In this document: piece by piece, positions 14,409-64,000 of the stretch
Layout of the letters: each line of letters begins with the position of its first letter
Position numbering within the stretch: position 1 is the stretch's first letter
Source of the DNA: Amoebophrya sp. A120
Lineage: Eukaryota > Protista > Dinoflagellata
DNA length: 64,000 nucleotides
Assembly: GCA_905178155.1 (NCBI GenBank)
Contig: CAJINV010000001.1
Location: 12,504,676 to 12,568,675, forward strand
Direction: 5' to 3'
Program-made: the position numbers and the translations under genes
Notes under the pieces: model-generated
Seen by the model: the letters and a program-made list of their open reading frames with translations, nothing else
What the model was told of the DNA's origin: nothing
Databases searched by the model: none

Positions 14409-17400
14409 TCAGTGCGTCTCGTCGCACAGCCCCTTGAACCACAGATCGGCCTTCGCTGCGCTGGAGCCACGAGAAGCCGCACTGACGTCTCCAAAGAGGT
14501 CGAGCAAACCAATGATGAGCAGCATCACCGTGCTTACGAGGATAACGCCAGCAAGGAGTAACGCGATGACTGACGTTCGGTTGTATTTCTTCACGTAGTA
14601 ATTGATTACTGATTTCCCCAAGATCGCCCCGCAGCAGCACACGACCGCGAAGAAAAGCGAGTACGCGAGGGGCGCTTGGCCGCCAATGATAAAAATCGTA
14701 CTGGCGGTGGTGGACAGCATAAACAGCGTCGTGGCGGTAGTCGCGGTTGTTACCTGCGGTTTGATGACGAAAAGTAATCCCAACTTTTGCTTTGAATCTT
14801 TTATCGCATGATGCCATTGGAAGATCATCTCTCAGTAAACTAAAATTTCAACAAAGCACACAAACCTGGGGCCGCAAGCCCATCTCCATCATGATCGGAC
14901 CTAGTAGCATGCCACCCCCTATGCCGCACATTGCGGCTATGACTCCAGCGCCGTATGCGTAGAAAAGCAACCGCAGTGCGTTTTCTCGTGTGTCAAAAAA
15001 CTCCCACGTGTCGCGATAAGACCTGAAGTGTGACAAAACCAAGTCGTATTCTGCTGCGGTTTTTCTTTCAGTAGGGTGTCCTATGAGAGGCAAAAGCAAA
15101 TATGAGAATCATGAACGCTTCGATCGATAGTAGAGAATAATACTTCGCTTCGACTTGCTGCCCGTTGCCTCCTGGTGTAACGGACACGGTTTTCCTCTCT
15201 TCGTACTGCTTGACCAGGCTCTGCGCGTGTCTGTAGGCGAGATTATCCCACAGAAAAAAGCTGGCAGGGCATATTTGTAATGCAAAAAGAAATACACAGA
15301 AAAATCTGTCATGGGCGACCTCGTAGCATGCTATTTCGGGTATGCAATACAAGTTTTCTTGTCCATTTATTTTTGCATTACAAATATGACCTGCCAGTTT
15401 TTTTCTGTGTGATAGAGATACAACAGAACGGAGGTGGCACTGAGGAGGATGAGCCAAAAGAGCGCGGTGCAGTAGCCCAAACTTGTCTTTACCTTGAGGG
15501 GGATCGAGATCGAAGTCGTTCAGTAAAATAAAGCGAAAACGCACTTAGAAATCTTTATTTTGTTCAACGAGCAAAGTCATTGCATTAACACAACAAGTAG
15601 CCACAACTTCTTACCCCCGACACGACGAGCATGATCATCCAGACCCCGAGAAGCATTTTTTGGATTCCGGCGTCACTGACCTTTCCCCGCGAGGACCTCG
15701 CTATTGTAGACGACAGCTCATTCACCGGGGACGGCTGCGCGCTATCCACCGTGTTGCCCTTCCCCGCGCTCGGTGGTTGTATTCTCAGTGTGCCACTCGC
15801 CACTGGAGACAGATTGTGGTCGACACCCTTTATTGGCGAATGATTCTTCGCGATCACCACTTGCTCCATGTTGCTGCCGTTGGTGGGCACCAGAGACAGA
15901 GAGGAGGAGTGCGCAGACGAGAGCGGGGACGTGGTCAACCCGGTCTCCTCGCCAGGACTGTTTTTTCTTGCAAGAGTTTTCGGATTATTTCCATGGTCGT
16001 CAATTTCCCCATGATCTCCGTCGGCGTTCCCGATCACCTCGGGCACATCCGCGTCCTGAAACTCCTGGTAGCTGGTGGGGGTGCTGCCCACCGAGGAAAG
16101 TTTCTGACTGATCTGGTAAATCACGTTCGGATTGGAGGTGCTACCGGATTCGGTTTTCTGCAAGCCAGGCCTCGCTCGGGCTTGGTTCTCGTCTCGCCAG
16201 AGGGATAAGCCTTTTCGCAGGGTCCTGCGGCCCGAATCGGTCAGAACTGCGATGAGGAGAAACAGGATCAGCCAGTCGGGTGATATCTTGTGCACGACGG
16301 CGCCCATCTGTACACCGGCCATGAGAGGGAAACCGAGAATGGCGGTGAGGTCGAAATCCACCATGGACCGGGATTTGTCGGTGGGGTGGCGCTGCTTCAG
16401 ATTGTAGAGAAGCACCGAAATCGCGCCGCCCGCGAGCATGGACTGCATTTTATTTTTCGATAAAGCAGTATTTACAAAACCATGACGTCATCAAAATGTC
16501 GCAGCAGCACTGCAGTGAAAGAACTACTTACCTGGTCACGAAAAACTCTATCCGAAAAATCCTTAAACAACCTTCCTCCCTCACCTGCGAAACCGCCGTG
16601 GCTTTGTGTGCTCGAAACCTTAGCAGCAGAATCAGAAGTGGCACATAAATGCCGCCTCCGCCGACCCCGGCGGACAGTGCCAGGCCAGAGCCGAGAAAGA
16701 ACAAAAAGGTTCCCAACAGATCCATATCGACTGGATCCGCGAATAACTCCTTGTGCCTGCAAACCCGCTCCGCGTCCCAGAAGTCGCAAACCCGATAAGG
16801 ATATGCCGCGCACTCCCGCGAGGAGACGCAGGTCCGATGACACCTACCTTCTCGACAAACTTCCGTATCGCCACACGTTGGCGCCGTCCACAGCGAAGTC
16901 GCCCAGTTTGTGGCTGCACCGCTCTCCTGTTGCGGTAGATTTGCGTCGTCGCCGCAAGAGACCCCGACGCGGACTTCCTTTGATTTTGGCTGGAAGGCGT
17001 ACGTCCGGAAGATACTGGCCGAAGCAGCCGTGCCCACCGCGTCCTCCGCACAGCGCCCCAACATCGGGTCCGCGGCCCGGCAAGAGCCGCGCATCACGCG
17101 GCAGACACTGGAAGTATCCCCCTTGTGTACGGAGGCCGGTGCGTTTTGCAGCGTGCTTGCGTACTCGAGAAAGTCGCAGTTGCTACTTATGCAAAACTGT
17201 TTGCACTGCGCCAGCGTCGTGCCGCGCTGCCCCGCGAATGCGTGGGCGGCCAGGGGGTCTTTACAGCACCCGGAGCCTTCGTCGATCCACACATCGTGTC
17301 CGGTGAAGGACAGCTGCTTCTGCAGTACGTCCCCCTGATAAACCAAATCGTTCGTCAAATTCCGGACTTCCGCGGAAAACGTGTGCTCGGGCCCGTCCAC

Positions 17401-18021
17401 CCCGGCGTTTTCCGGCACGACCTCCAGAAACCGCGCGTCGCACACCCGGAGTGCGCAGTGCTGCGTGGCGGCGGGGGTGTAGCAGGAAGCGGGTAGGCGG
17501 GAATACGCCGTGGGGCCGCTGCGGAAAATCAGCGGGCCTAGGCTGCTTGATTTTGACCAGTCCGATACCCCGCCGGGGTCTAGTTTCAAGTGTACCACCG
17601 TACACCCTTTGCTGCAGAGTGCCGCGGTAGTTGTTTCACTAGTTCCTCCGCTTGGCGCCATGGTGTGGCAACTGGCTGCCTGTGTGCAGTACTGCGCCAG
17701 CCCACGCTCCTCCTGTGGGGAAGTCGGACACAGGTGCGGATTTGTCGCCGGGCAGACGTTGTGCCCACCGTGCGCCTGATCGCAACACGCCTCGCCGTCC
17801 GAACAGGTCGTCCCATCGTAGCAGGTACTTGACGTCGACGGTGTATGGCCTAGCGGGCAGGCACGAGAGAACGGGTAACTGGTCTCGCCGTGGGCTGGGG
17901 CATGTGTGGGAAATGTCGCTGCGCAGCTTAGAAGGACAACGGCCCGTTTCCGGCTTTGTGCAGTGCCGGTGCTAGGCCCGCTGGTGCCGCAAACCGGACG
18001 CTTTGGTATGAAGCCCTCCAT
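14409..18021 (-). CDS. TauE/SafE (DUF81) family transporter with Cys-rich N-terminal extension
   Basis: Motifs LALSAGVGGGGIYVP and AAMCGIGGGMLLGP plus multiple TM segments; GT-AG introns 16443-16584, 15493-15614, 14754-14865; introner at 15244-15414. Confidence 0.85.
15244..15414. mobile_element. Introner, family B (171 bp)
   Basis: TIR tatcccacagaaaaaa...ttttttctgtgtgata; TSD gagat at 15239-15243 and 15415-15419; removal gives SVLLYLAYRHAQ. Confidence 0.92.
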
Positions 18022-18506: not shown

Positions 18507-20464
18507 TCAGGACAGCGCCGGCGACGCAGTTGCGTTTTTCCCAAATATTCTGGAACCGCCGACGATCAGAAATGGTGTCGCGAAAAGGAATATCAAATGT
18601 AAAAATGTCTGGGTCTGGAAGAATGCAACTTGTCATGCTAACTCTGAACCCTGGAACCTGAAGCATGCAAAAATCTGTGTTGCATGATTACCAAAAGTCG
18701 TCCAGTTTTGACCAAGTTGCCGCGAGGGAGTTTCTCATGCAGGATAGGCATGAGAGAGATCGCACAGAATCTATCATGCTAGGCCCTGCATTCCAGGCCT
18801 CATGGATCATGGAAACGCTGCATGACAAGTCGCGCATTCTTCCAGGAGACCCAGACATTTTTACATTTGATAAGGAAGACGAAGTGACTGAGCGCGTTGT
18901 GATTCACGTGCGGCATGATTGGGTGCAGAGCGCATGCGGTTGGGTTTTCTATCCAAGCGGCGCCGCACGCGCGCCCGAGTGTCGTCTGCACTGCAAAGGC
19001 ACTAATTGCGACTACGAGACCGAAGAGAAACACCAGCGGTGCGTTGGTGCCGCATACGCAGAACGCTTTGGTGTACCTGTTTATTTTGTGGAAAAGCAAT
19101 TCACGTGCAAAGGTTTTCTTTTTATGAAACAGAAACTCGCCAAAACAAGACAAAACAAAAAAAATGCAGAACCTCAGACTATCAATACCTTGCAACGACT
19201 CCGCCGAGCAGCAACCACGCGAATAGGTAGCAGCCCCCCAGTACCAAGAATGGCAGCGCGACAACGAAGTGCGTGAGGCACAGCAGAATTGTTGTTACCG
19301 TGATAACCAGGTCCTCGGAATATTCAGTGAATGCTCTCACGCACAGGCCATTCAACCCTTTCCCCCGTTGCAGAAGAGGCTGCGCTTCGCTTCCAGGGAA
19401 CACCAACGCTTTTGCATGCTGGTCGTGGTCGCGTAGCGGGCTCTTCTTGCTTCCCCTCGTTGATGCCGAAGTGCTACTTCTGGACGGACCCGCAACGCTC
19501 GCTCGCGAACTCAGTGCTATTTCAGGGCCAGTTGTACTGTTAGGGCCTGCTAGAACTACGTTTCTGCTCGAAGAGCCCGGTGCTCCGAATTCCCCGGTGA
19601 TAATTCTTGATGTTCCTTGCTCCACCATGGGAGTGTTCACGTCTTGCGACAGCAGCTCGCGCCGCATCCGGCAAGCAAGCAGGCACAGGAAGGCCGACCC
19701 CGCGAGGCATAAAAACCCGGTTGCGGACCAAAGCAGGTGGTCTATCGGCCGTTCGGCCGGGTCGTCAGACGTGCACAGCAGGTGCAGCACTCCGCCGAAA
19801 AAGGTGCCGAGCGCGATACTGTACCAAGACAGTTCGTAGAGATATTACAATGAAAAATGCCCCCTCCCCATATCAAAACGGAAATCTGTGATGCAGATTT
19901 GTGGTCACAAAACAGCTTTGTGATGCTAGAAGGCAAAAGATGCGGACTGTAGTGCTGCCTAGCGTGGGAAAGCCTTGCAGCTCCAGGATGACAGGAGGCA
20001 ACAGGAAGTGGGAAACAGCATGACAGATTCCCTGCAATTCAGGCCGCAGCTTCGTCTCTTGGCCTTCTACTAGCAATACAAGTCGATTTGTGTACTCAAA
20101 TACAGTATCACAAATTCGCGCATCTTCCGCTTCCGATATGGGGTGGGGGCTTTTTTCACTTTGATAAGAGAAAGAGGTTCATCTGCGAGCTCTGCAGGAG
20201 CTGCTGTAGTCGCCGCGCCGTGTAGGACTGCGAATCTTGTTTCCCCTCCATGATCTCGGCGGTTGGCGATATTATATTCCCGATCGTCCATCGCGCGCGG
20301 GATAAAAACCAGTAGGTCAGGAAAATTTGCACGGCGGCATTCAGAAAATCCGTCGCGAAGGTGCCAAAGCTGTTGTCGCAGCCGTGCTCAAAGTAGAGCC
20401 GCCCGATCAGGTCGCGCCGGTCTAGCTTTGGCTGCGCCAAAAGGTCAAAAGTTGGGTTCGTCAT
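18507..20464 (-). CDS. Multi-pass membrane protein, CREST-superfamily/DUF6962-like
   Basis: Reconstructed after removing two introners and GT-AG intron 19077-19188; motifs FATDF, FFGGVLH, NHNALSH; family assignment tentative. Confidence 0.65.
18591..18872. mobile_element. Introner, family E (282 bp)
   Basis: TIR tatcaaatgtaaaaatgtctgggtct; TSD aggaa on both sides; removal gives LSHFVFLFATPFLIV. Confidence 0.92.
19843..20166. mobile_element. Introner, family D (324 bp)
   Basis: TIR tattacaatgaaaaatgccccctccccatatc; TSD agaga; removal gives QMNLFLYELSWY. Confidence 0.92.
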
Positions 20465-23258: not shown

Positions 23259-23479
23259 AATTCAGGGAATCGCATAAAATCGCGCAACCAGCGGCGCCAC
23301 TCTCGCATCACTAATACATTTTCAAGTAGCGCGTGCCTGATGGGTTGCCTTGTGCAAACGTAGATCTGAAAACCGACAAGCGCCGACCTTAGCATAGAAC
23401 ACTTTCTGGAAAAATTCACGCGACGGGCAGAGCAGCTCCGGTGACAACTGTTCGACATGAAGACACACCTGTCTCATGA

Positions 23480-25230
23480 AGTCGGGCGATTGGAGGTGCC
23501 AGACACCGACCCAGACCGGACCCGGCCGGTGTTGGGCGGACTCCACAAAGACCGGGCCGCGCCTGTGCGGGCGCGCCGCGAAGAGGGCCCGGCGCCCGGC
23601 CCGGGATAGCGAGGGGCGGCGATATCATCCGAACCCCAAAAAGTTGTGTCCGAGTGCGAGCCAGCCCGCAGGCGCCGCGGCCGCGCGAAGTAGTGCAGCG
23701 AAGGAGAGCCAGGCGAAGGCCTCGGCCCGGCGGCTGTCGAACCGGGGGCCCGGGGGCGCTGCGTCCCCGCCTGCCGGCCCCGGCGGCTCCGTTGCCTGCA
23801 CGCGCGCGCCCTCTCCGCGGCGCCGCCTGGCGGGGCTCGCCCGGTTGTTTTTGTTGGCGGGCCATTTGGGGGGCGCTCGGGAGTCTTTTGCGCAGCAAGC
23901 GCGCGCGCCAAATTCTGCGCGCCTCCTACCGCCCGGCGCCCCGCGCTGCCTGCCCCGGCTGCGGGCCTCCGAGGTATTTCACCGCCCCCGGCTTCACGTC
24001 TGTAGCCCCCATCCGCGCGGCGGCTTCCCCGGATCTCCTTCTTGTAGAACTCCGCGTCACCGAAGGCCAGCCCATCGTCAACGTGTAGGCAGATAAAGCC
24101 CGCGTCTTCCCCCGGGCGGCTTCCGTCCCGTGAGTGGCGTCCCGGCCAATTCCGGACGCATCCCGGCGCCCTACCAAGAGGGCGGGCCCGCTCCGGGCGC
24201 GCGCGCCCCGAAACTAACAACAAAGCCCGAGGCGCAACGCGGCGCATTGCTAGGCGAGCCGCGTCGGCGCGCAGTTGCAATTTGCGCAGTAATCGGGGCG
24301 AATTTTTAAATTTTAACTCGATCCGGGCTGCACAAGAGGGCTGATTTTTAAAAATTGGGCAGCGTTCCGGGGTGTTCCCTCGGCCCGTAGGCGCCGGCCC
24401 CCTTGCTTCGGTCCGAAGGCGCCGAGCCCGCCCGAATGCCGCCGGCCCGGCCTTCGTCAAGAGCGCCGGCGAATCGCACGCGCTGCGCGCCAGGCCGGGC
24501 AGGCGCCGCCGCGCCAAAACCCACGCCGGGGCGCCCGCCGGCGCGCGCGCCGTTTCGCCGGGGGCGAAAGCTAGGCGGCCTCCAATGCGGGCGCGCCTTC
24601 CCCGGCGGATCGGAGGGCCCCGCCTCCCGCGCGCCCCCTGCTCCGCGAATCCGCGGGCCCCCAATCCCGCCTGGTGAACTCCGCCCGCTTGCGGCCCGCT
24701 TCGTGGTGAGCCGCGTGGCGGCCCTAGTGGTATCTACGCCATGGCGGGGCGGGGCAACGTTGCCGCCCGGCCGAGCTGCGGGCCCGCCCTCCTCTCTTCC
24801 GCGCGGGGCCGGATGGGCGGCCGCCCCAAAAAGGCGGCCCGAATGGCGTCGCTCGCGCTCCGGGCGCGGGTCTACAATGGCCAGGCGAAGGCAGCAAGCT
24901 GCTGCCCGTAGCCGCAGGCGCCCGGCTGCCGTTCTCCTGCGGCATCGTCGCCGGCACCACGCTAGCACGACCCTGGTCCCCGCGGCCTTCCGGAAAGCTC
25001 GGGACGTCAACCGATGCGACCGGATACCGCGCCCCTTGGGGCCGCGCCGCCGAAAACGCTGGCGCCTCGGCATCGGTTACACGCGCCACGGCTGGGCCGG
25101 TCCTGGGTGAGCCTAGACGCTACGCACCTGGGCGCAATTAGAGCGATGGCGCCGAACTTCGGCCCGCTCTTACAACACGCCGCTGCGCTGCGGCGCCCCA
25201 CCAAAACCCCAGCGCGCCCGCAGGGTAGAG
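23480..25230 (-). mobile_element. Degenerate Ty1/copia-like retrotransposon relic, extremely GC-rich
   Basis: Frameshifted reverse-transcriptase remnants GFICLHVDDGLAFGD (~24060-24100) and KYLG; abrupt rise in GC; boundaries approximate and no LTRs seen. Confidence 0.65.
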
Positions 25231-25861
25231 TCGTCACTATTGCGGCATCATCCGCAAACTCCACGTCGACGGGCAGCTCTAGAGCCGTAGTACAGAAGGG
25301 AGCAAGGGGGAACAGAAGTAGAACACAACAACCCTCATTGTCCGCGTCTTGCATCAGTTTTCTGTTCGTTGGCACGTTATTTGGGGATTCTCCCGAAAGG
25401 TTCTGACACGACATTCGAATGTTCGAGAGCAGCAATCAGAGTACAGCAGTTCGCATCGTGCTAAGATATGGCTCAATCGCATCGAATCCTTCAGTAGGCA
25501 CAGTTGCGCTCGGGTCTGGCCCGTATTCTACTTTCTCATATACGGTCAGGCAGCTTCTTGCGGACCCTCACCTTTCCTGAGGATAAAAAAAAACTCGCAC
25601 TTTTTTCCCGTACTTCTACTTTGACTTTTTCGGAAACAATTATCACTGCAAGTTATTGATCATTCATTCCATCTATCTAGATATCTTTTCTGGAGTAGAG
25701 AAAAACACTTTTGCCGTCAGCTCTGGTAAAAATTCAAACATCATCTCATACGGGAACTGCCCTCGTGCGTAAAATCAGATATACTAAAAAAAATCGCTGC
25801 GTATTCAAAGGATTCAGTTTCCTCCTTGCGAGGATGACTCGTCGCCAGTGCGTGCTTTCGG

Positions 25862-28800: not shown

Positions 28801-31800
28801 TTGCGTGACCCACCGCATAGCCGATCGTCTCCGACCGGAAGGGGGTGAAAACCGTAAAGGGGTAACTCGCGAACAAATTCTTCCCCGGCACCGCCCACGT
28901 GTTTGCGGACAGCAGGCCCCCGTAGTTCAACCCGTTATTTTTGACCCTCACCCGCTCCGCCGGTGCGGACTGCGCGAAGAAACTGCTCTCCACGGTAAAC
29001 GCGTTGCGCACGCCAAACTCCTTGCCCACAACCGCCCGTATGGATGTGTCAGAGTTGAAATCGACAAAGTTGAAATAATTTGTCATGCATAAAATGGATG
29101 CCAGTTGGAACCCAGTTTCCAAGGGGCGCATGACAAATTTCGGTGGTCCCTAAATCCAGTCTGTCATGCTATTTAGGCGAAGAAGAGCGATTTTCTCATG
29201 CTACTTTAGCAGCTCGAGCTGTAACCCCAAACAGGCTTACAATCGGCCTCACTTGCCTGCCCTGCAACACACGTGCCTCGGGTCATGCATTTTATGCATT
29301 TTATGCATTACAAATTATTTCAACTTTGACGATTTCAAACCTGACGCTTCCATAGCCCGCGCGGATTTCGTATGCGATTTCCCGTGCTGCCACCTATCCC
29401 CCAGAAAAAGACCGACAGGTCATATTTGTAATGCAAAAATAAATAGACAAAAAAATCTGTATTGCATGCCCTAAACAGCATGCTATGGCCTCGCCCATGA
29501 CAGATTTTCCTGTGTATTTATTTTTGCATTACAAATATGACCTGCCTGCTTTTTTCTGTGGGATACCACCGGCAGTCTTCGAAGGATATGTCCCGCGTGG
29601 CTAGAGACGCGAGTTTGGGAAACAGGGCGCTCTTCGCGTCCGTGTAGTGCTGGCAGCCGTAGAAGAATGCGGAGCACTTCGCGCTGTGCCCGTGAAGGTC
29701 GAGAAAAATGTCCACGCTGTCCGGCGGGAGCGACCGGAGATACTCCTTGATCTGGTGGATAACTGGGTGGATGATCGGGTTCGGATCGTGCCAAACTCGG
29801 TTTGGATCCACGCCAGCGAGCGTGCAGCGCGCGTTGCCGTGGACCACGCCGTCGATGTTGACCATCGGGATCAGGTGGAAGACGAACTTCTCGCGAAGAA
29901 CCTTCGCGTAGAGACTTTTGCCAAGCAGGAACCGCATGAAGCCCTGCATCACCCAGCTCCCAACCACTTCCCCACTGTGCTGGCGCGCAATCACAAAAAT
30001 GATGCGTTTTTTGCCGAAGGTCAGGTCGGCAATGTGCTCTTTCACCGTTTTCCGGATTCCCGTTGGCGAAATCTGCTGCTTGTCCATCTGCTCCTGGGGA
30101 AAAAGTTTAGATGACAAAAATGAAAATTGGAAGTAGAAAATCTTAGTATAGTATTACTTCTGCAAAGTATAAAATGGAACCAGAGGAAAACAAAAAGCTT
30201 TCCCGCTTGGCAATGGGCACTTACTTCTTTCTCCTTTGCTGTCTGCATGGCGTTGCCCAGGTTTTCCGACACCCAGAGCAGGGGCACCGGCACGCCCGCG
30301 ATCGTGCGGCAAAGCTCAGAAGCGATCACGTGGTCCTGCTTTTGCACTTTCAGTTTATCCAAGAACAGGCGCAGCATCGTGTAGGTGTAGGGGTAAAACA
30401 GGGCGAAAAACACCGTGTCCTCGGCCTGGAAGCGGTACGACCACTGCAGACAAAACCGGTCGGCCTTCGCTTTTTTCGCGGGGAAGTAGTCCAGGTCGAA
30501 GCAGCAAAAGCACGACCACTTTTGCTCCTTCACGGAAAAGACGTAGGGCTGGAGGCCCTCCTGGTGCAGACTCTTGTTCTTCTTCAGATTGGCGATCCGG
30601 AAGTGCGTCACGATGTCCTTGTCCGTGTACGACCGACAGCCGAAGTAAAACCATTGCGCGCAGCCGACGGTGTGCGTGTCCGACTCTAACCAAAGCTCGT
30701 ACGAATAGTTGGGCACGGAGGCGTCTTTCTCGAGATCCGGCGACTCCGGGCGGGTGTAGGCCTCGTTCTCTCCCGCGGCGGAAATGAGAGACTTGATAAC
30801 TTTCGCGTTGTTTTTCGTTTTCGTTTGCGCAACCCGGCTGGAAAGATTTGAAGCGGAAGGTTTCGCGCTGGAAGTTTCGAAGCCGTCCTGCGGATTGCGA
30901 TCGTTTTGTTGCGGCCCTTGCGGCCGCGAGGATGCGTCGCCTGGCGCGGTTTGCCGACCGGGTGGGAAATTGCTTTTCTCTTCTTGCCCCGCAGCACTTG
31001 GCATTTTCGCCTCTGCCTTCACCGCTCCCGCGGGGCGATGCGTCCCTTTCCCATCCGGATCCGAGTCTTCGTCGCTGCTTTCGAGCAACTCCAAGAGCGT
31101 CCGCACCTCGTTGTCGGGCGGTTCCGGCGGCAAAGCGTCTTCGTCGTAGTTGCTTGCGCTGTCGCCGTGCTCGAGAGAACTAGTTTTGCTGATTGTGATG
31201 GCGGGGCCTCGCGTCGGAAGCTCGGTGCCCGGAATCGCGGCAAACGCAGCCGACGTCCGCGCGTGCAGATGGATTGTGTCTGCGACGGTTCCGCCCCCGC
31301 CGCCCGCTGCCTCGCCGGCCGCACTGCCGCGCCGGGGACGCGCAAAGCCCGGCGTCGTAGCGCGGTCGGGATCCGGCTGGCGGCAGCACACGCGCCGCAC
31401 TTGGGCCAGGTTCGCACACTCGAAGCAAGCATTGAACGCGAGAGGGCCGTGCGGCCACTCCGCATTTGCGCTCGGCGGCGGAGGAAAGACAAGTCCCTCC
31501 GGTAGGCAAGGCAGGTGCGGCGGCAGTTCGCCCTTCTCACCCGAAACGTCGGCGCCTTTGGTATGCGGCATCGCTTAGTATTTGATGAGCAAGTCTCAGT
31601 TGAAATCCCAAAAGCAACGGAACATAATGCGACGCTAATGTCCTGGTTGCCATCAACACAAGCTGAGTACCTTCTACAGGGTACGGACTGGAAATGTCGT
31701 CCATCCGGTGCGCTTGTGCCTTCACCGCGAGGGTGCGCGCCATCTGCTTCCATTCCTCTCCGCGCCGATTATACACGGTCGTGTACGTGTACGTGGGCTT

Positions 31801-33690: not shown

Positions 33691-33790
33691 NNNNNNNNNN
33701 NNNNNNNNNNNNNNNNNNNNNNNNNNNNNNNNNNNNNNNNNNNNNNNNNNNNNNNNNNNNNNNNNNNNNNNNNNNNNNNNNNNNNNNNNN
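33691..33790. other. Assembly gap (100 N)
   Basis: Run of n. Confidence 1.
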
Positions 33791-34016
33791 TTTCTCTTTA
33801 CATGAATCTGCGATGCTAAACGCGCCGCAAATCGACTATAATGATGTCGATCTGACGACGACGAGCTGTGTTCGACGTCTCTGAACGCCAGAACCAGGAG
33901 AATTCTCCTGGAATTCTTGCGCGCCCGGTGCAGAATTCCACGAAATTTTTTGTGGCGAGATTCTGACGCCGCCACCACTTTTGACGCCATGCCGTCGTAG
34001 CTGGACATCCAGCTTT

Positions 34017-34403
34017 GACGGTATGGCTGAAAATGTGACATGGGGCAAAAATGTGACATGTGCCCACGTCACATTTTTACCGCGGGGGTATGGTCCAAAA
34101 TGTGCCATCTGCCCACTTTTTGTGACATTTCGCGAACCACGAGGGCACGGTCCAAAATGTGACGCCAAGGCTGTTTTTTATAAAAAACAAGAAGCAAGAT
34201 GCTCTTACTTCTTCTCTTTTATAAAAAACAGCGCTGGCGTCACATTTTGGACCGTACCCTCGTGATTAGGCAAATGTCACATTTTTTGGTCAGATGGCAC
34301 ATTTTGGACCATACCCTCGTGGTAAAAATGTGACGTGGGGAAGTGTCACACTTTCGCATGATGTCACATTTTCGCATGATGTCACATTTTCAGCCATACC
34401 GTC
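34017..34403. mobile_element. MITE/foldback-like element with 25-bp TIR and internal aaaatgtgac repeats
   Basis: gacggtatggctgaaaatgtgacat ... atgtcacattttcagccataccgtc; ggtccaaaatgtg and its reverse complement occur internally; no TSD seen. Confidence 0.7.
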
Positions 34404-34679
34404 TCGCTGCTATTGGTGTCGCGGAAACGCATAGCAATGCGCCTTTTTGGCTTTTTTTAGTGTAGAGGGCCAGGGCCGGGCGTGGGCTTCGGGGCCGAGC
34501 TGCCTCGGCGGCCTTGGGGGCCCGCTTCCCCGGGTGCCGCCGCGCTGCCCCGGCGCCGACCGGAGGCCCGCCGCCCGAATTCCCCGGCGCCTCTGGGCCC
34601 CTGCTTCTCGGGCTCTTCCGGGGCTTTCGGGGCCCGGTTGCCCGCCCGCAAAGCTCTTGGAGGGCGAAAGAGCTGTCTT

Positions 34680-35427
34680 TCGTTCTCCCCCGAGGGGGAA
34701 GTGGAACTTTCGCAGCTTCAAGGCTGCGAAGGTTCCAGTTCCCGCTCGACAAAACTGGGGCAGGATTTGAAAAGGTATGGCCTTCTCGCACCTCTTCACC
34801 CTCAAGGTGGCGACCACGCCAACAAAAACAGCGCGTCCAGTTTTGCCGAGCGGGAGCTGGAACCTTCGCAGCTTCGGGGCTGCGAAAGTTCCAGCCCCCG
34901 GTCTTTAGAGAACGCAGAAGCTGCGTGCCGTTCTCCCCCGAGCGGGGGCTGGAACCTTCGCAGCTTCAAGGCTGCGAAAGTTCCAGTTCCCGCTCGACAA
35001 AACTGGAAAAGTGTTGCACTTTTCCGAGTTTTGTCGAGCGGGAACTGGAACGTTCGCAGCTCGAAGGCTGCGAAAGTTCCAGCTCCCGCGCGGCAAAACT
35101 GGAAAAAGATTGCCGGGCGCCGCAGTGGTTCCAGTTTTATCGGGCGGGAGCTGGCGCTTTCGCAGCTGGAAGGTTGCGAAAGTTCCAGTTCCCGCTCGAC
35201 AAAACTGGAAAAAGATAGATTGGGAGCGCTGCAGTGGTTCCAGTTTTGCCGAGCGGGAGCTGGAGCCTTCGCAGCTGGAAGGGTGCGAAAGCCCCAGTTC
35301 CCCCGCGACAAAACTAGGAAAAGACTGGGAGTCAGTGCTGCACCGGGTCCAGTTTTGTCGAGCGGGAGCTGGAGCGTTCGCAGCTTCAAGGCTGCGGAAG
35401 CTCCCGCTCCCGCTCGATAAAACTGCG
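34680..35427. repeat. Array of ~7 palindromic ~75-bp units with variable spacers
   Basis: Consensus ccagttttgtcgagcgggaactggaac.ttcgcagc-loop-gctgcgaaagttccagttcccgctcgacaaaactgg. Confidence 0.9.
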
Positions 35428-35484
35428 AGAGACGCTCCTCCGGGCTAGGGGGCCCCGCTTCTCATTGTTGCCCCGCGCAGTTTC

Positions 35485-35962: not shown

Positions 35963-35971
35963 GCTCGGTCT

Positions 35972-40153: not shown

Positions 40154-42181
40154 ATGGGTGCGCAAGTGAGCCAGGGGCTCGACGCGGTGCTGTTCCAGCC
40201 CCCGGAAAGGGGCGCGGAGCAGCCCGCAGGTCAACCAAGTGCGACTGTACCTGGGCGCATAGGCGGCGAAAAGAACTTTGTGACAATCCAGACCCGATTA
40301 GGCGGCCACATCACCGCATACTCGTGGAACATCGGGGCGCGGGATACGATCCTATTCTCCCACGCCAACGCGGAGGACTTGTCCTGCTGCGTGGACTTTA
40401 TCCAGCGCATCGCCCGGTACTTGCGCGTCAACGTCTTTGCCTACGACTACGAGGGGTATGGGACTTCGACCGGGAAAGCCAGCGAGTCCGCCCTGTATGC
40501 CGATATAGAAGCTGCATACACCTATCTCAGGTACTGGGTAAAAGACGGATTTTTTTTTTCCTGTACGAAAGACTATCAGCTGCATTTGTGCCAATTGGAG
40601 ATCTCGATGCGCACGTGCTACTTGTCTTTGTACGAACAAAACATCAAAAAATCACCTAAATACTCCTCCAGGGAAGTGGTCGGCGTCCCGTGGGAGCACA
40701 TCATTCTGTACGGCCGGTCCATTGGCACCGGGCCCACCGTGCACCTGGCTGCCTCTGCGCCGGTGCGCGGCGTTATTGCGAGGAAAAATCCCCCCTCCCC
40801 ATATCAAAACGAAACTTCTGATGCTGGATTTGCGTGCACAAATCAGCCTTGTCTTGCAGCAGAGAACTGCAGCCCCTCCATAGCAAGCCTGCGCGGCGAG
40901 GTTTTAGCCTAGGCGCTCAGCATGACAAAAGCCTATGCCGTAGGCCCAACAGCATCGCAAACCGCTGGCATAATGCGGGAAGTCTTTTGGGTTTGCCTCC
41001 TTATGCAAGACAGAGACGATTTGTGATCACAAATAAGCATCACAAATTTCCAAAAATGTACCTTTTGAATATGGGGAGGGGGGATTTTTCCGCACAATAG
41101 GCGTGATTTTGCAAGCCCCGATGGCCAGCATCTACCGCATTATCCTGAGTAAAAACGTCCCCACACCAGAGTTGTAATGCAAATCTGCATGCCAAAAAAG
41201 TTTCTCATGCGGAGCCCCATGAGAAGCATTTTCTAGTCGTGTTTTTGAGTTTGTGATGCTAGAATGAGCATGATATGCTAGATCTGTGATGCTGCTGAAC
41301 TAGCGAAACAGGATCATACTAGGAGGGCAAACCTGTCATGCGAAACAGCGAAAGCTGGTTGATTTGTCTAGCCGATTTCCCATCTTGACTCTGGTGTGGG
41401 TACGTTTTTACTCAGGATACGCATTGTGTTTGATTTTCGCTTCACGATGTGGGGCGATCAGTTTGCGAACATTGACAAAATCGCGCGCGTCGCCAGCCCG
41501 GTCTGCATTGTGCACGGCATTGCGGACGAGATCGTCCCGGTATGGCACGGTGTAGAGCTGTGGAAGAAATTGCAGCGGCCGGTGGAACCGCTGTGGGTTC
41601 CGAACGGCGACCACAACGCGTTGGACCACGAGATGCTGTTGCGCAGGGTGAAACTTTTTCTCGTCGAACTTGAGCACATGGGGTTTTCCGAGAACCAGCT
41701 GAAGCAGGCACTACAGGAAACGGAAGAGATCGAGCGCTTGAAGTCCGACATGGACGGAACTGGAGACTTGATGTTCACCACCACGGGCGGCGGGGAGACC
41801 ACTTCTGCGATGCAGCCGGAGTCCGCTCCTTCGTCAAGAACTTCTTCGAGCAGCCGACGATCGGAAGGGAGTCGCGAGCCGCGGGAGCGCTCAGAACTGA
41901 TACTGCGGATCCACGGCGGGAGAGACAGTTTTTCGGAAGTACGTGCCAACTCACCGCACAATTCCTCCGAGAGCAGCGGAAGAAGCATTCGCGTCGGCAC
42001 CTCCGTGGTCGCACGGAACCGCGCCAGCGTGCTGGCGTATCTCGAACAGCAGGAGCACGCTGCTTCCATGGAGGAGGCGGCTTTGGCTGCGGCAGAGCTG
42101 CTGGAGGGACCAAATAATAGCAGGAGGGGGAGCAGAGTGGTGACAAGAACGGAAATGCAAAGGGTGCCGCTGCGTCCGTGA
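40154..42181 (+). CDS. ABHD17-like alpha/beta hydrolase (putative depalmitoylase)
   Basis: Motifs SHANAEDL, YDYEGYGTSTG, YGRSIGTGP, GVILQAP, DQFANIDKI, VHGIADEIV, GDHN; GT-AG intron 40531-40671 plus two introners; N-terminal MG. Confidence 0.9.
40774..41099. mobile_element. Introner, family D (326 bp)
   Basis: TIR tattgcgaggaaaaatccccctccccatat; TSD ggcgt; removal gives PVRGVILQAP. Confidence 0.93.
41141..41419. mobile_element. Introner, family C (279 bp)
   Basis: TIR tatcctgagtaaaaacgt.cccacaccagagt; TSD cgcat; removal gives SIYRIVFDFRFT. Confidence 0.93.
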
Positions 42182-49200: not shown

Positions 49201-51655
49201 GACATTTTCAACCAGAGCACCACCGTGAAGCAAACACGAGCGAGAATAATGGCTTTGTTTCAGCAGCAAGATAATGGTGCCGGGTCTCAACATTCAAAGC
49301 GAACATTTAAACATTTTTGCAGCGGTGCTCTGTGTGCGCCAGTTACGTTTGCAATTTGTGTTCCACTGATTTCAGTATGAGGCCAAAGATGTTGGCATTT
49401 TTCTACGGATCGACCGCCCTTTTTGATCGCTTTTGCAAATGGATCTAATTTTTGGATGTTGAGATCTGCCAAATCAGCTTCGACACAATCGATTTTAGTC
49501 TTCTACTCTGGAAGCCAGTCGCTTCACCCTCTAGTACCTTCGTCTCACGCATGAAATTTTTTCTAGTCCAGCAACAAGGCCAAGAGGGTTTATTTTTAGC
49601 AACCACTGAAGTAGTAAGGCTAGGGTTTCTTCGAGGGATGCGCATTCGCACAAAATGAGTGGCTTAGGTCTACACGTTTTTGTACAATTGTAAAGAATTC
49701 TTGTGCGACGTTTTTACATTTCGCTCCCACCATGCCAACCTTTATTCTCGGTGATTCAGTGCTGCCGATCACGAAGGCGAACAAATGGTGGACCAAAGTG
49801 GAAGAAGCGCCGCTGCAAATCCTCGCCGCCCGGGCGCCGTACCACTGCTATGTGGAAAAGCTGTACTACTGGAACATCAGCCCGCGCGCGCAGAAACTCG
49901 CACTGTGTCCCTTCAACATAAACGAAAGTGCGGGCCTGTTCTCGTCGACCTTTGATGCGGAGAAGACAGGTATACACAATTTGCGCTTGTTGGAAAACCA
50001 AGCATTTTTTTCTTCACGATTTTTGAGTTCTCTGTAGGTGAATGAAGTTTGGTATTTTGTTGTGCTCACCAATTCATTTTGAAGCATAACTCAGGTACTC
50101 CCTGTTCCTTCGCGTTCGTGGCCGAGAACACGGAAAATACGCTGCTTGAGCTGGAACTCAATCCACCCCTGTTGCTCAGACGGAGCGAAAACATCGGCAT
50201 GTGGGACCAGGAGAGCGGGGCACTCAACGTCGTGTAAGTCTAGTAAAGTTGCTTGTTTGATGTTCCGCTCTGAAATTTTAATTTTTTTCAGATGTAGAAA
50301 GAGTGGTAATAATATTCAAAGGAATTCATGAAGCAAAAACACCTCAGGTCCACTTGGAAACGAACGTTCGCCGGCTCTTTCAGTGGCAGCAGCGATGACC
50401 ATCTGGGCTACTTCCAAGCCTCCACACACCATTTTACCGGCGTGAAAAAGGTAAAGTCCTACCTTGCCTTATCATATGTAAAAACGTCCCCACACCAGAG
50501 TCAAGATGGGGATTTTGCAACACAAACCTTGAAGTTTGTGGGGTCACGCATGACAAGTTGCATGCTGTACTGTAGTGCAGCTTAGCAAGGGAAGCCGCAT
50601 AACACATCCATCTCCTTATCCTGTTTGCAACATTACAAGTTCCAAAACACGATGGGAAATGCCTCTCATGGGGATGCGCATTACAAATGCTCCTGTGCTT
50701 GCAAATCTGCATGACAACTCTGGGGTGGGGATGTTTTTTCATAGGATATGCCTACAGCACCAACTGGTACGTGACCTTCCGGCGACTCACCAAGGAAGAG
50801 CTATGAACTGCAAAAATGTCTAGGTCTGGAACTTTGCTCGACTTGGCATGCAGGTTTTCCATGACCCCTATGATCTGTTAAGGAGGACCTAGCATGACAG
50901 ATTCCGTGAGATCACTATCATGCCTATCCTGAATTAGAAACTGCCTCTCAACTTGGTCAAAAGTGGACAGCGTTTGGCAATCCTGCAACACAGATTTTTG
51001 CATGATGCAGATTTAGCATGACAAGTTCCAACCTTGCAGACCCACACATTTTTGCAGTGCATAAGAGCGGGACGCGAGCAAAAAGAAGAAAAAGCCCGAG
51101 AAGACGCAGCCGGTTTTGCAGCTTGCGAACAGTGACGAATTCGAGCGAAAAGCGAGCTTGCGAATTGCTTCACTGCAATCCGGCGACGCGAATTTGCGGA
51201 GGCATCCTCTAGTTCTCCAGCAAAGCGGCTGTACGAATTCTGCGGACGATCATTTGCCTGAGCTGCAACTCGAACCCGCGCCGGCAGGATACAAACCGAG
51301 GCCCGTCGCCGAGCAGCAGACCGCGACCTCCACTGGTGCAGCGACTCACAGCGCTCAAGAAACAAGCAGTAGTTCGAGTCAGAAGAAAGAGGGGAAAAGA
51401 AAGAAAAACGCCGCAAAGGAAGGCGAAGAAATATCAGGAGATCCGTCACTTCCCGGAGAAGGCAGCGACGACGCGGCGGTCTTCGAGAGCGAGCAGATAG
51501 AACCTGCTCCTGTGTCGCTCAATGACGTGACGCCGAAGCCAATGGAATGCTCGGAGGAGTCAACGGTTGATGACGAGATGAACACGACACCGGGGTTGAG
51601 CACCTCTATGTCACGGGAGGAAGAGGAGAATCAAATACCCGAGATCGCGGACTGA
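46258..51655 (+). CDS. BRCT-domain protein with REV1-type N-terminal BRCT; multi-exon, linkage of exons after ~49.3 kb uncertain
   Basis: EYMAMKSARMKEQF and LFQGLTFWMTG...ILQHGG...VSHIIA...VVLPAWLEDCIRENKILPETEY; the 3' exons join in frame after removing introners at 50470 and 50802. Confidence 0.65.
50470..50748. mobile_element. Introner, family C (279 bp), inverted relative to the 41141 copy
   Basis: TIR tatcatatgtaaaaacgtcccca; TSD tgcct; removal gives KSYLAYSTNWY. Confidence 0.92.
50802..51063. mobile_element. Introner, family E (262 bp), diverged and inverted relative to the 59167 copy
   Basis: TIR tatgaactgcaaaaatgt...acatttttgcagtgcata; TSD agagc; removal gives LTKEERDASKKK. Confidence 0.9.
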
Positions 51656-52151: not shown

Positions 52152-52881
52152 ATGGGGGGTTACAAGCAGTTGCATCACATGTGGTTTAACCGCTACGTGA
52201 TGGGCATGTGGGCGACGGGCTTCATTTGCAACTGGGCCACGGACCAGTGGTATCACATTCCGCGCGATCGGGTACTGGATTTTCTACGCATGCTATTTGC
52301 TTCAATTTTCAACTATTTTGAGAAAAGTGCAGAAAAGAGCTCGCGTTGCGCTGTCGTTGAGAACAAAAGAAAATTGCGCCTCCAAAACGATGAAACACGA
52401 CAGAACGCAAACATCCGTTGGCAGTATTGGATGGATCTTTGTAATGCGAAACGTGCGGGGGAGATCGATCCGACGATGCCTGGCTATATGGCCATGAAGT
52501 GGATTATGGAACTGTCAGGATTGAAATTAACAAAGTTGAAATAATTTGTGATGCATAAAATCTATACCAGTTGGGCCCACAGTTTCCAATCGGCGCATGA
52601 CAAATTTTCCTGGTCTCTGAAGCAAGTCTGTCATGCTGTTTAGGGCAAGATGGCTGCTCCCTGTCATGCTAGTCAGCAACCCAATTGCTGACCCTTACCA
52701 GCACTAGAATCTGCCTCCCTTGCGCCTTCAGCAATAGAGTCAGTCTTTGTGTCGCATTTTATGCATGGCAAATCATTTCAACTTTGCCGATTTCAACTCT
52801 GACACATCCATATGGATTAACGATCGTGAAAGTATCGAAGGAAGCAAAAGCCTGTCACTTCTCAATTTGCAACTACGATAG
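52152..52881 (+). CDS. Small hypothetical single-TM protein
   Basis: MGGYKQLHHMWFNRYVMGMWATGFICNW...; probable short intron near 52272; introner removal gives AMKWINDRES. Confidence 0.55.
52505..52812. mobile_element. Introner, family A (308 bp)
   Basis: TIR tatggaactgtcaggattgaaat...atttcaactctgacacatccata; TSD tggat. Confidence 0.92.
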
Positions 52882-53596
52882 GCATCATGACAAAGAATTG
52901 GCTCCGGCTGAGTCTGTCTTCGGCATGGGCGAAAAGCACATGATCTTGCAAGTGACACGGTTTTTGCCACGCATACGGGAAATTGCATGGGAGAACCACG
53001 GTATACACTGCTACGTTTTTTGTTTTATGCTCCGCAGAAGTTTTACTGCAAGCATGATCAGTGCCAAAGGCGCCGCATTTTTGAAATCATGATCCACAAA
53101 CAGCTCGCGAGTACCCCGGTTTTGAGATGCCCGAAAGCTAGATGCGAAAAGAGGGTTGACGAGTTATGGGTCCGTACAATGCAACCAAGAAGAAAAAGTA
53201 AGCACAGAGCATGAAGAGAAGGGTAGACATAAACCGCTTGGTGATGTGCATGATGCAATCAGCGCTGCTTGATTCGCAACCTTTTGCAGCAGCACTCGCT
53301 TGGCTTGCTTGAAAGAAGATGAAAACTCAGCATTTACTAGGAGGGACATGGATGGCGATTGCACTGGACGCGAGTGTGCGTCTCATGTCGCCTGGAGATC
53401 GCCGAGTTGGTGTCGTCAATAATATTTGGCAGATGTTCTTCATTTTCAGAAAGAAATACGGCTGTTGTTTTTTTTCGCGATTAGAACTGAAAAATTTTTG
53501 CCAGCAGATTTTTATACAGAGCAATTTTCTTTTCCTGTTCGTTCCTGCCTCTCCGCATTATTGCTTGCAGCACTGCCCCATCATGGTATAGCCAAG

Positions 53597-55476: not shown

Positions 55477-59601
<4,125 letters not shown>

Positions 59602-60539: not shown

Positions 60540-61964
60540 ATGGCGTCGCCCACGAAGGACGACGGCAAGGCCGTCGCGCGGGCGATGAACAACCTACAGG
60601 CTTTCGCCATGCTCGGCCCCGGCATTCTGACCAACACAATGAGCTACGGCGTCGCTCCGGAAACGGGGCAGGACTCAGAGCTCCCAGACGCGTCGCCCAC
60701 CAAGGAAGAAGAACCGCCGGAGGTGACAAAAGCTGCTGACAATCTCCCGGTGATGAAACCTGGTATCAAAATCCGCCTAAAGAACAAAAGCGTGTTGCGG
60801 TTTTCTATTTTTTCTTGTTGCCTTTCCGGCGTAATTAAGTAGCTGATTTCGATGTATACCACACAGTAAGTCTCCACAGACATTCACATACCAATGTCTA
60901 CTTCGCGTGTTGAAAATACCTACCCAGGCCCCGCAGTCAGCCGAGACCAGCTCCTAGAGCTGTTGAAGGAACTCGACAGCTACAAACCCACGGCCAAGGA
61001 GGTGACAAAGCTAGGAGCACAGCTCATAAAAGAGGGCTCTTCAAAGCTTTCTTTTATACAGGCGTGGGAGAAAATCGAGGCACTGGGACTGCCACCGGAT
61101 CCATTTGACAAGTATAGTAGTTTTGGTTTTTCTACTGTTTATAATTTCTGAGCCTCTATTACATTAATGTGCAAGTCCATTTGGTCAGAGACCTGATTTA
61201 CAACGTGCCGTTGCAAAACAACTATCGCGAATAAACAAAACACAGGCACAACCTGTCGGAGGCTCGGTTTCAGGAACTCTTGAGCCAGTACGTGAACGAC
61301 GACGAAGTTTGCAACAAGGCGAACGCCATTATGCAGAAGATGCACGAACCCGTGTTGGATGCAAACCGTAGCAAAAAGGATCTGTCCCCGGAGCAGGTGG
61401 TCCAAATTCACAAGCACATGATCGACGTTCTGAAGGATACCATCACGGAATTTTCCGCGCTGCCCCGGGAAAGGAGACATAAGTTCTCGGCGAAGCAAAC
61501 GGAGACCGTGTCGGAACTGTTGGTTTCTATGTCCGTGGAGCGGAAGTTTGGAGCAAATTCTGACGATGTGGAGGCCGGGTTGATGAAGTATGAATACTTG
61601 ATGAACTCTGAGCAGGGCGGAGGACAATTCGCGGAACTCACACAGCAGCTGCAGGGTATGAGACTTTACTTTTACTACTTGCAGCTTTAGATAGTATTAT
61701 TTTTCGTAGGATGATAGATGAGATGCATCGACATTTATTTTGATCGAGAAGACGACGGGCTTCTTGCAACAGAAGCCGAGAAAAGCAATGAATCACCCCA
61801 CTTATCTTGATCGATCATTTTCCTATCAGGTTACATGTCTGTGCTGATTTCCCACGCAAGGCCACGGCTTACTGCGGAGAATTTCCGAGGGCTGCTGGCC
61901 GAGCTGGCCAGACAAAACAAGAAAATGAAATCAAACATGTCCGAGATGTATGCCGCGTGGAGCG
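60540..61964 (+). CDS. Helical hypothetical protein, multi-exon; 3' end interrupted at the 61965 element
   Basis: Exons MASPTK..., PAVSRDQLLELLKEL..., HNLSEARF..., GYMSVLISHARPRLTAENFRGLLAEL... joined by GT-AG introns; no stop before the element. Confidence 0.6.
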
Positions 61965-62243
61965 TATCCTGTGCAAAAACATCTCCACCCCAGAGTTGTC
62001 ATTCAGATCTGCAAGCACAAGAGCATTTGTAATGCGCATCCCCATGAGAGGCATTTCCCATCGTGTTTTGGAACTTGTAATGCTGTGAACAGGATAAGGA
62101 GATGGATTTGTTATGCGGCTTCCCTTGAAAAACTGCATTACACTACAGCCTGCAACTTGTCATGCGTGGCTCCCAAAACTTTAAGGTTTGTGTTGCAAAA
62201 TCCCCGTCTTGACTCTGGGGTGGGGACGTTTTTACAAATGATA
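61965..62243. mobile_element. Introner, family C (279 bp), with non-matching flanks
   Basis: Near reverse complement of the 50470 copy with intact TAT...ATA ends, but flanks are gagcg and taggt. Confidence 0.9.
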
Positions 62244-64000
62244 TAGGTCCGAAACCTCTTCCGGCTCGATCTTCACGATCGCCCCCGCCGCGGCTTCGAA
62301 CACTTGTATGGGAGTGTCAGGATCGAAATCGTCAAAGTTGAAATAATTTCTCATGCATAAATTGCAAGGCATGAAGTGCCTCTCTTGCAGGGATGGCAAG
62401 TGAGGCCGACTGTCAGCCAGTTTGGGGTCTGAGATAGAGCTGCTGAAGTGCATGACAAAAGACGCCTTCTGTCCCTAAACAGCATGACAAACTGGATTTA
62501 GACGGTGCCGAAATTTGTCATGCGCCACTTGGAAACTGGGCTTTCAACTGGTATCGATTTCATGCATTACAAGTTCTTTCAACTTTGTCGATTTCAATCC
62601 TGACACATCCATAACTTGGGGCTCCCTGTCATAGTGAAAATTTGATAAGTACAAAGTTTGCACAAATGTACTTGCCACAAGTAGTTGTTGAACGCGAAAA
62701 CCAAAACCGCCAGCGCGAGCGCCGCGCGAAACGCGGCATTACAAACACAAACTAAAAATAAAACTTGCGTGGTCTTTCTCGCATGACAAATTGTTTCATC
62801 ATGATCATGTGAATGAAGTCTATTCCAATTTTTTGTACGGACGACGAGAAAAAAACATTCGTGATCGGTATAGGGAAAAAACGCAATACGCCAACTTCAC
62901 CCGGACCATTTCGTCCTCGTCGATAGCGAAAGTATTCCACTCCGGCACTGCGATGTAGCACGCTTTGTAGTAGTCCGACGCGAACCGGCCCTCCTGAAAC
63001 CTCGTTTGCATCTTATGCAGGAAAAAAACTATGTACTGATGCAGAAAATGCAACACAGTTACACTTGTCATGCTGGAAGTGCGTCATAGCCGTGCTGCAT
63101 ACTGTTTTCACGTACTAGCTGCGCATTACAGGGTGTTTCTGTAATGCAAAACGAATTTCTTATGCTGCCCTAGCTACAAAGTTACGCTCACACAGTTTTT
63201 TTCACGGATACATCTTGGCGTTCTTGCACTGTTCCGCGTCGATTTTGTAGCCGATCAGACGAAAGGAATCCGTGAGCACGCAGGGGTAGCGGCTTCCCTC
63301 CCCGGTCTTCGTGTTCTCATACAGTTCGGCCCGGAGAACGTATGGCACCACGCTGCCGTCGGCCTTCGACATCTCGAAGGGACTGGACTCTTTCACGAGC
63401 TCGAAGGTCGCGGAAGTAGTTTTCCCGGTAGAAGGAGTTGCCTTCTCTTTATTTTCGCCGTCTTCGCCTTGCTGCTTCTCGTCATCCCGTCTTGTTTCCT
63501 TGATCCTAATCCGCTTCGTGCGCTGCAAAGATTCTTGTTCTTCTACCTGCTCCCTCGTGCTGGTCGCGACCGTTTCCTTTTTTTCCCCGACCGCCAGCGC
63601 CGCGGAGGGGTTGTAGTACTCTGCGTCACTTGTGACCGCGAACGGTGCCGTCCTGGTGTCGCGGTCGACATGATGATCGGGCTCGATGCGATTTACCACT
63701 GTGGCGCTCGTCTTCCTACTAGCTCCACTTGTTTCTCTTGCCCTTTCATCGTGGTAGTTTTCTGGTCCCGCGAGGCCACCTGCTCTTTGTTCACCAGACT
63801 CATCATGGTTCGCGGACAATGAAGGTGGACTGGCTTTATTTTTTCCCACGAAAAGGCTCTCGTCGTCATCTTCCGTCGGCTCGAAGATGTCCCGGAGCTG
63901 CACGGGTTCTCGGCGCAACATGCGCCTCCGCTCGGCGGCGACGAGAAAAAGGGTAGGTGTGGCATCGTTCTGCGTCGAAGGCACAGGGTTGGAGAGAAGC
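62244..64000 (-). CDS. Hypothetical protein, multi-exon; begins beyond the window end and runs into the 61965 element
   Basis: ORF 63202-63984 continues as KMQTRFQEGRF after introner removal; further short exons stay open to 62244, frame of the last exons ambiguous. Confidence 0.55.
62307..62613. mobile_element. Introner, family A (307 bp), inverted relative to the 29039 and 52505 copies
   Basis: TIR tatgggagtgtcaggatcgaaatcg...atttcaatcctgacacatccata; TSD acttg. Confidence 0.92.
63014..63210. mobile_element. Introner, family F (197 bp)
   Basis: TIR tatgcaggaaaaaaact...agtttttttcacggata; TSD catct; removal gives KNAKMQTRFQ. Confidence 0.88.

What the first reader, a model, noticed from the sequence alone, without database searches (positions are those of the whole stretch)
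15244..62613. Every multi-copy introner family occurs in both orientations relative to transcription
Seen: family B copies 15244 and 29395 are inverted to each other, both in minus-strand genes. Family C copies 41141 and 50470 are inverted, both in plus-strand genes. Families A (29039/52505), D (19843/58795) and E (18591/59167) have the same genomic orientation in genes on opposite strands. Known: spliceosomal introns are directional (donor, branch point, acceptor). Inference: the excision signal is symmetric, either the RNA stem formed by the TIRs or a DNA-level protein complex.
Basis: partly seen in the sequence, partly recalled or inferred. Interest (0 to 1): 0.85.

Follow-up and report, generated by a model that had tools for sequence, protein, structure and literature searches.

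The report
Two-way transposon introns in Amoebophrya
In the marine parasite Amoebophrya, already-described small transposons sit inside genes facing either way, mostly lack normal intron ends, and the copies checked are cut exactly out of the RNA, likely because their mirror-image ends carry the whole removal signal.

Summary
The headline holds. These are the known introner elements of Amoebophrya sp. A120: TAT...ATA inverted ends with a perfect 5-bp target duplication (15 copies; 0-1 in shuffles). All five named families, plus a sixth, occur in both orientations to transcription. One cited pair is doubtful: the host of E18591 is unresolved and leans plus; E50802 rescues family E. In 131 outside loci the split is about even (E 39:29, C 7:6). 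Spliced contigs of one run lack C and E copies of both orientations, so removal is on RNA, not DNA. 83 of 105 outside copies have no canonical splice pair in any register. One unique junction cuts 1 nt before TAT and 4 nt after ATA, giving an N-U-A donor like the GUA of 27 of 29 ordinary introns. Likely a relaxed spliceosome guided by the terminal stem; unproven. The scan noted similar odd introns in other dinoflagellates. Known system, useful new handle.

The parts
10492..10703 (-). Family X element, 5-bp TSD; inverted to X63014
   Evidence: no RNA check
15244..15414 (-). Family B element in a TauE/SafE-like gene; inverted to B29395
   Evidence: no RNA check
18591..18872 (.). Family E element, 26 of 26 terminal pairs perfect; host strand unresolved, leans plus
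   Evidence: no RNA check
19843..20166 (-). Family D element in a minus-strand membrane-protein-like frame; opposite transcript orientation to D58795
   Evidence: no RNA check
29039..29354 (-). Family A element in a cytosolic carboxypeptidase (M14) gene; opposite transcript orientation to A52505 and A62307
   Evidence: no RNA check
29395..29565 (-). Family B element in the same M14 gene; alignment to human CCP5 runs up to the junction
   Evidence: no RNA check
40774..41099 (+). Distant family D element in an alpha/beta hydrolase gene
   Evidence: RNA not resolved
41141..41419 (+). Family C element, reverse orientation; absent from a spliced contig
   Evidence: record 1 starts at 41420 with 409 further letters
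50470..50748 (+).
   Evidence: predicted depth 21.2 if removed, 4.3 if kept, observed 21.1
50802..51063 (+).
   Evidence: record 4
52505..52812 (+). Family A element; RNA joint shows removal of element plus one 5-nt repeat
   Evidence: table 5c
52832..52979 (+). Intron made of a decayed TAT...ATA element (52833-52975) whose flanking repeats no longer match; unique RNA junction 1 nt before TAT and 4 nt after ATA, ends GT...GG
   Evidence: table 5c
58795..59105 (+). Family D element in an MCM helicase gene (MCM6-like by recall)
59167..59432 (+). Family E element, forward orientation, same MCM gene; absent from a spliced contig
   Evidence: record 6 starts at 59433 with 917 letters before it
61965..62243 (.). 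Family C sequence with unmatched flanks; joins the 5' part of a plus gene (P0001) to the 5' part of a minus gene (P0002); not counted in tallies
62307..62613 (-). Family A element in the minus-strand gene P0002; same transcript orientation as A52505
63014..63210 (-). Family X element in P0002

Best explanation
These are non-coding DNA transposons with inverted ends that sit in exons in either orientation, and the copies checked are removed from the RNA together with one 5-nt target repeat, likely by a relaxed spliceosome that reads signals held in the inverted ends. Shown: anatomy, both orientations in about equal numbers, exact RNA-level removal for five copies, no need for GT or AG. Inferred: a TIR transposase inserts them without regard to strand; because each arm is the reverse complement of the other, every transcript begins the intron with the same UAU arm and ends it with the same AUA arm; the arms are predicted to pair and bring the ends together. 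Weakly inferred (one junction): the 5' cut is 1 nt before UAU, an N-U-A donor that keeps the U+2 and A+3 of the ordinary GUA donor, and the 3' cut is measured 4 nt past the stem instead of by AG, which restores the exon whatever the target sequence.
For: Organism and class: an exon is 100% identical to an Amoebophrya sp. A120 protein; arms match the published A120 motif TAT + 7 nt + As, 26 of 32 window arms having A at 11, 12 and 14 and 32 of 32 at 13. TSD: 87 of 99 family-E copies and 136 of 161 elements have a perfect 5-bp repeat. Orientation: E 37:34 (71 of 99) or 39:29 (68 of 96), C 7:6 (13 of 16), X 2:5 (7 of 8). RNA: and the length arithmetic. No canonical pair in any of the six equivalent registers in 11 of 15 window copies and 83 of 105 outside copies; G before TAT in 18 of 63 against 30% background. 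Unique junction at 52832-52979. Ordinary donors GTA in 27 of 29, GTAT in 14. The A25 strain, whose repeats start TTA, has TT as 5' end in 9 of 9 listed top pairs, and A120 has N-T in 9 of 9. Most spliceosome proteins and U2, U4, U5, U6 are reported present in A120, U1 not found.
Against: The register rests on one old element whose first base is G, so it may have drifted towards a normal donor; the authors state that cut sites vary relative to the hairpin. The published A120 pairs end in A-N in 8 of 9 and 8 of 9 are 3-of-4 or 4-of-4 matches to GT-AG or CT-AC, as aligner sliding inside the repeat would give, so that table is weak support. Diverged repeats in the outside loci did not resolve the register. 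No G.U excess on the sense strand, so selection on an RNA stem is not shown. 22 of 105 copies do have a canonical pair, about 14 expected at the 13% background, a mild excess. RNA evidence is contigs of one run from one sample and gives presence, not efficiency; families B and D and copy A29039 have no RNA check. Outside host strands come from a codon model trained on this window, some training exons lying next to the test junctions. No lariat or snRNA data here.
Confidence: 0.58

Rival explanations
1. A separate, non-spliceosomal RNA machine (structure-guided nuclease plus ligase, as proposed for Euglena non-conventional introns) cuts at fixed spacers from the terminal stem and would release a circle or linear RNA.
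For: Neither GT nor AG is needed; termini are predicted to pair both ways; arms are more alike within a copy than between copies (C: 24 of 2000 shuffles reach it, X: 54 of 2000); Euglena uses a paired core with unequal spacers, N3 and N5-6, and its excised introns are reported as circles; U1 not found in A120.
Against: The one resolved 5' end has the U+2/A+3 of ordinary donors; a branch-like motif lies at branch distance in 10 of 15 copies; the invariant features are sequence (TAT, A13), while the variable 7 nt pair less well (82 of 105 by my count); 15% of canonical A120 introns are reported to carry the same repeats.
Confidence: 0.3
2. Both orientations persist, but one is spliced poorly, and the even split reflects weak selection or wrong strand calls.
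For: No efficiency data here; 41 of 161 outside elements could not be strand-called; contigs drop minor forms.
Against: C and E copies of both orientations are absent from spliced contigs; the split stays even at stricter margins (E 25:20, 16:14); retention of any window copy would add stops or shift the frame.
Confidence: 0.08
3. A transposase-like complex excises the elements from DNA before transcription, as in ciliate IES removal.
For: Clean TIR and TSD anatomy; invariant TAT ends.
Against: The same contig lacks an element and two GT-AG introns; DNA-type contigs run into the elements at their loci (many joints of that run were not displayed). No separate somatic genome is known in dinoflagellates (recalled).
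Confidence: 0.03

Closest known systems
Introner elements of Amoebophrya sp. A120 (Farhat et al. 2021, PMC7789003; abstract, sections 10, 11, 16, 32 and supplement passages read, figures not seen)
   Same: Same organism, TAT + 7 nt + A-run inverted repeats, short direct repeats, non-canonical ends, hairpin model.
   Different: The word 'strand' does not occur in the main text or supplement text and 'orientation' refers to genes only, so a two-way tally was not seen there; they give repeats of 3-5 nt and variable cut sites, here the repeat is 5 bp in 136 of 161 copies.
Two-way introners of Polarella glacialis and Aureococcus anophagefferens (bioRxiv 10.1101/2020.10.14.339549, passages read; the Aureococcus paper itself not read)
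   Same: TIR/TSD transposons that create introns in either orientation.
   Different: Those carry or recruit GT/GC/GA and AG ends and all show a bias to one orientation; here most copies have no canonical pair and no bias was detected.
Euglena non-conventional introns (PMC12501133, abstract and passages; PMC11282704 section 6)
   Same: Paired ends, direct repeats that blur the junction, fixed unequal spacers between stem and cut sites, MITE origin proposed.
   Different: CAG/CTG core and purine at the exon start; machinery proposed to be separate from the spliceosome; here a TAT/ATA core and free flanks.
Fritillaria borealis non-canonical introns (PMC13326754 passages; PMC11282704)
   Same: MITE-derived non-GT-AG introns attributed to an altered U2-type spliceosome.
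   Different: Preferred ends AG-AC/AG-AT and U1 kept; here no preferred end pair and U1 not found.
IS3EU/GingerRoot DNA transposons (PMC10045372 passages)
   Same: TA..TA termini.
   Different: TSD usually 6 bp, here 5; no transposase seen, so a lead only.

Membership tests
Amoebophrya A120 introner elements | Genome is Amoebophrya sp. A120 | tested here: met
   exon 100% identical to an A120 protein
Amoebophrya A120 introner elements | Inverted repeats starting TAT, 7 variable nt, then As | tested here: met
   family A keeps only A13 and A15/G
Amoebophrya A120 introner elements | 3-5 nt direct repeats at the boundaries | tested here: met
   5 bp in 15 window copies and 136 of 161 outside copies
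Amoebophrya A120 introner elements | Repeated, and removed from mRNA | tested here: met
   families; 5 intact copies absent from spliced contigs, 4 by boundary or joint and 1 by length
MITE (non-autonomous TIR transposon) | Short, non-coding, TIR plus fixed-length TSD, many copies | tested here: met
MITE (non-autonomous TIR transposon) | Autonomous partner with the same ends | not testable with these tools
   no whole genome held
U2-type spliceosomal intron | GT/GC donor with AG acceptor | tested here: not met
   none in 11 of 15 and 83 of 105 copies
U2-type spliceosomal intron | Branch point and lariat | tested here: inconclusive
   branch-like motif on both strands, also a typical place for transposase sites; lariats not testable
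Euglena-type non-conventional intron | N3-CDG ... CHG-N5-6 then purine | tested here: not met
   ends are TAT/ATA with free flanks
Euglena-type non-conventional intron | Excised as a circle without lariat | not testable with these tools
   needs excised-intron sequencing
IS3EU/GingerRoot | TA..TA termini with 6-bp TSD | tested here: not met
   termini fit, TSD is 5 bp

The most novel reading that the evidence does not exclude
Amoebophrya has a spliceosome that has dropped both G+1 and the 3' AG: it reads only U+2 A+3 at the 5' end and measures the 3' cut from a terminal stem. Any transposon whose inverted repeat starts (N)UA and whose target repeat matches the two spacers (1 + 4 nt in A120) becomes a scarless intron at any exon position in either orientation. 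One rule would cover GUA, A120 N-UAU and A25 UUA donors and explain tens of thousands of non-canonical introns.
Probability: 0.3. Interest if true: 0.8.

Novelty: already known. Interest (0 to 1): 0.42.

Why it matters
How Amoebophrya removes its majority of non-GT-AG introns without a detectable U1 is an open question in the papers read. Even use of both orientations and freedom of the target sequence confine the signal to about 45 nt at each end and exclude the interior and the exon. That turns the question into small tests: branch mapping, register from diverged repeats, arm swaps. Two-way insertion by itself is expected of inverted-repeat transposons and is published in other algae.

Tried and rejected
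No whole genome was held. No RNA holder on record was listed; X1-X4 are guessed RNA, and X1 was accepted as spliced because it skips GT-AG introns. Raw-read runs X7 and X8 did not cover the exons (another strain), and DNA-type run X5 crowded the joint table. RNA status of B15244, B29395, A29039, D19843, E18591 and X10492 remains open. Protein search for the E18591 host: nothing. Cluster-representative search for the M14 gene was not obtained; a PDB search replaced it for the upstream exon and found nothing for the short downstream exon. Rfam: no match. G.U versus A.C test: null. Compensatory changes: 17 of 26 double changes keep pairing (my sum), but pairs are not independent and arm copying or subfamily founders explain it equally. 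G at -1 or AG at +3/+4 in target repeats: not enriched. Diverged repeats (12, 15) did not fix the register. Insertion phase: fifth repeat base at codon position 1 in 56 of 114 (p 0.002) fits phase-0 introns under either -1/+4 or -4/+1 or a target preference, and is not seen in the window (4 of 15); not used. Published splice-pair tables downgraded as possible aligner effects; 19 of 58 A120 rows of that dataset were read and two supplement files were not searched. C61965 rejected as a normal copy. Not-in-print statements rest on paper searches and word finds 10, 12, 28, 29, 30; figures and subscription papers were not seen.
Full report
What is there. The window holds 15 elements of 171-326 bp that begin TAT, end ATA, have inverted ends and a perfect 5-bp flanking repeat; five shuffles gave 0-1. 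An exon is identical to a protein of Amoebophrya sp. A120, and the ends match the published A120 introner motif (PMC7789003 section 11). In-silico removal of element plus one repeat restores an open frame at each copy, while retention brings stops or a frameshift.

Orientation in the window. Interiors orient the copies clearly. With host strands from frames, Pfam, PDB and two gene models and a codon model that agreed with 14 of 14 assigned copies (training exons partly adjacent, two margins under 3), families A, B, C and D are two-way as stated. For E the cited pair is doubtful: the E18591 host is undecided by codon model (margin 0.4) and reads best as a plus gene with GT..AG introns. E50802, inverted to E59167 in plus genes, makes E two-way anyway. 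X10492/X63014 adds a sixth family. A62307 lies in a minus gene. C61965 is a hybrid join and was left out.

Orientation at scale. 99 distinct E copies were complete, 33 matches lay at an edge or had no partner, and 87 of 99 had a perfect 5-bp repeat. 71 of 99 were strand-called: 37 forward, 34 reverse. A wider scan found 161 elements, 120 strand-called: E 39:29, C 7:6, X 2:5, none different from even.

Removal is on RNA. In run X1 one contig skips two GT-AG introns and stops matching exactly at the edge of C41141 with 409 letters left; others stop at the edges of E50802 and E59167; a joint shows A52505 removed with one repeat. Contig length predicts depth 21.2 if C50470 is also removed and 4.3 if not; 21.1 was seen. 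The start positions at C41141 and E50802 fit removal of element + 5 nt. So C and E are removed in both orientations. This is one run and shows presence only. DNA-type contigs of X5 run into the elements at their loci. B, D19843, A29039 and E18591 have no RNA check; the M14 match to human CCP5 runs up to the B29395 junction and the conserved C-terminal motif follows A29039 (recalled), which argues for removal.

What the signal is not. No GT-AG, GC-AG, GA-AG or AT-AC pair exists in any equivalent register for 11 of 15 window copies or 83 of 105 outside copies (22 seen against about 14 expected, a mild excess; 10 of 63 against 8.2 in family E). Target repeats show no G before TAT or AG after ATA beyond background. 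The interior is asymmetric and can be reversed. So the signal lies in the arms.

What it may be. The arms are predicted to pair both ways, but G.U is not favoured over A.C on the sense strand (15:13, 30:32), and the greater likeness of arms within a copy can come from arm copying. Invariant features are TAT and A13 and a subterminal GCATNA[CG] motif whose A lies 34-47 nt from the 3' end in 10 of 15 copies and occurs in 2 of 29 ordinary introns: a branch-point candidate, equally a transposase site. One decayed element has non-matching repeats, so its junction is unique: the intron is 52832-52979, GTAT...ATACGGG, 1 nt before TAT and 4 nt after ATA, and the spliced frame is open. This gives an N-U-A donor. 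27 of 29 hand-placed ordinary introns start GTA (3 backed by contigs, 4 by gene models, 22 by frame). Published top pairs start N-T in A120 and TT in A25, but the A120 list also looks like aligner sliding. The rule is a hypothesis from one junction.

Comparison. The elements are published. Two-way introners are published for Polarella and Aureococcus, with canonical-type ends and orientation bias. Euglena has stem-plus-spacer introns and Fritillaria an altered spliceosome. I saw no orientation tally or fixed register for Amoebophrya in searches or word finds 10, 12, 28-30; figures, two supplement files and subscription papers were not seen. Earlier scan notes report similar introns in other dinoflagellates, none for this genome.

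Verdict. Real and stronger than the window alone shows, but expected from inverted ends and part of a known system. The symmetric-signal inference stands, DNA excision does not, and two-way use does not exclude a spliceosome. Relaxed spliceosome 0.58, separate RNA machine 0.30, unequal splicing 0.08, DNA excision 0.03. Interest 0.42.

Noticed in passing
window 61965-62243: A family C sequence with unmatched flanks joins two different genes head to head: P0001 residues 318-527 and P0002 residues 352-997 are not in the window, and the two proteins are recorded on contigs of different length. Misassembly through the repeat or real recombination between two introners.
   Followed up: partly
window 52813-52831: A 19-nt exon piece lies between two transposon-derived introns and is kept in the RNA.
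   Followed up: yes
window 56130-56274 and 62626-62889: GT-AG introns starting GTAT that hold two copies of the element motif: possibly old introners that regained normal ends.
   Followed up: partly
window 33791-37200: Block of nested inverted repeats and 33-, 71- and 109-bp tandem units next to the N gap, with TAT...ATA pairs lacking target repeats (34022-34398, 36453-37109) and the same TTTGTCATGCA motif.
   Followed up: no
window 59167-59249: About 170 raw RNA reads of another strain (run X7) carry a family-E-like arm from one other locus, so related elements exist there and appear in RNA reads.
   Followed up: no
ordinary introns, e.g. window 44652-44756, 61112-61245: Acceptors are A/C-rich (AAACACAG, ACCTCAG) with no U-rich tract, and 5' halves are T-rich.
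   Followed up: no
L001-L131: Fifth base of the target repeat falls on codon position 1 in 56 of 114 insertions; further unclassified TAT...ATA families of about 150, 225 and 240 bp.
   Followed up: partly
window 23400-25240: Intergenic stretch of 64-72% GC without a clear gene, perhaps another mobile element.
   Followed up: no
window 15272-15386 and 29423-29537: Family B holds a second, inner TAT...ATA inverted repeat.
   Followed up: no
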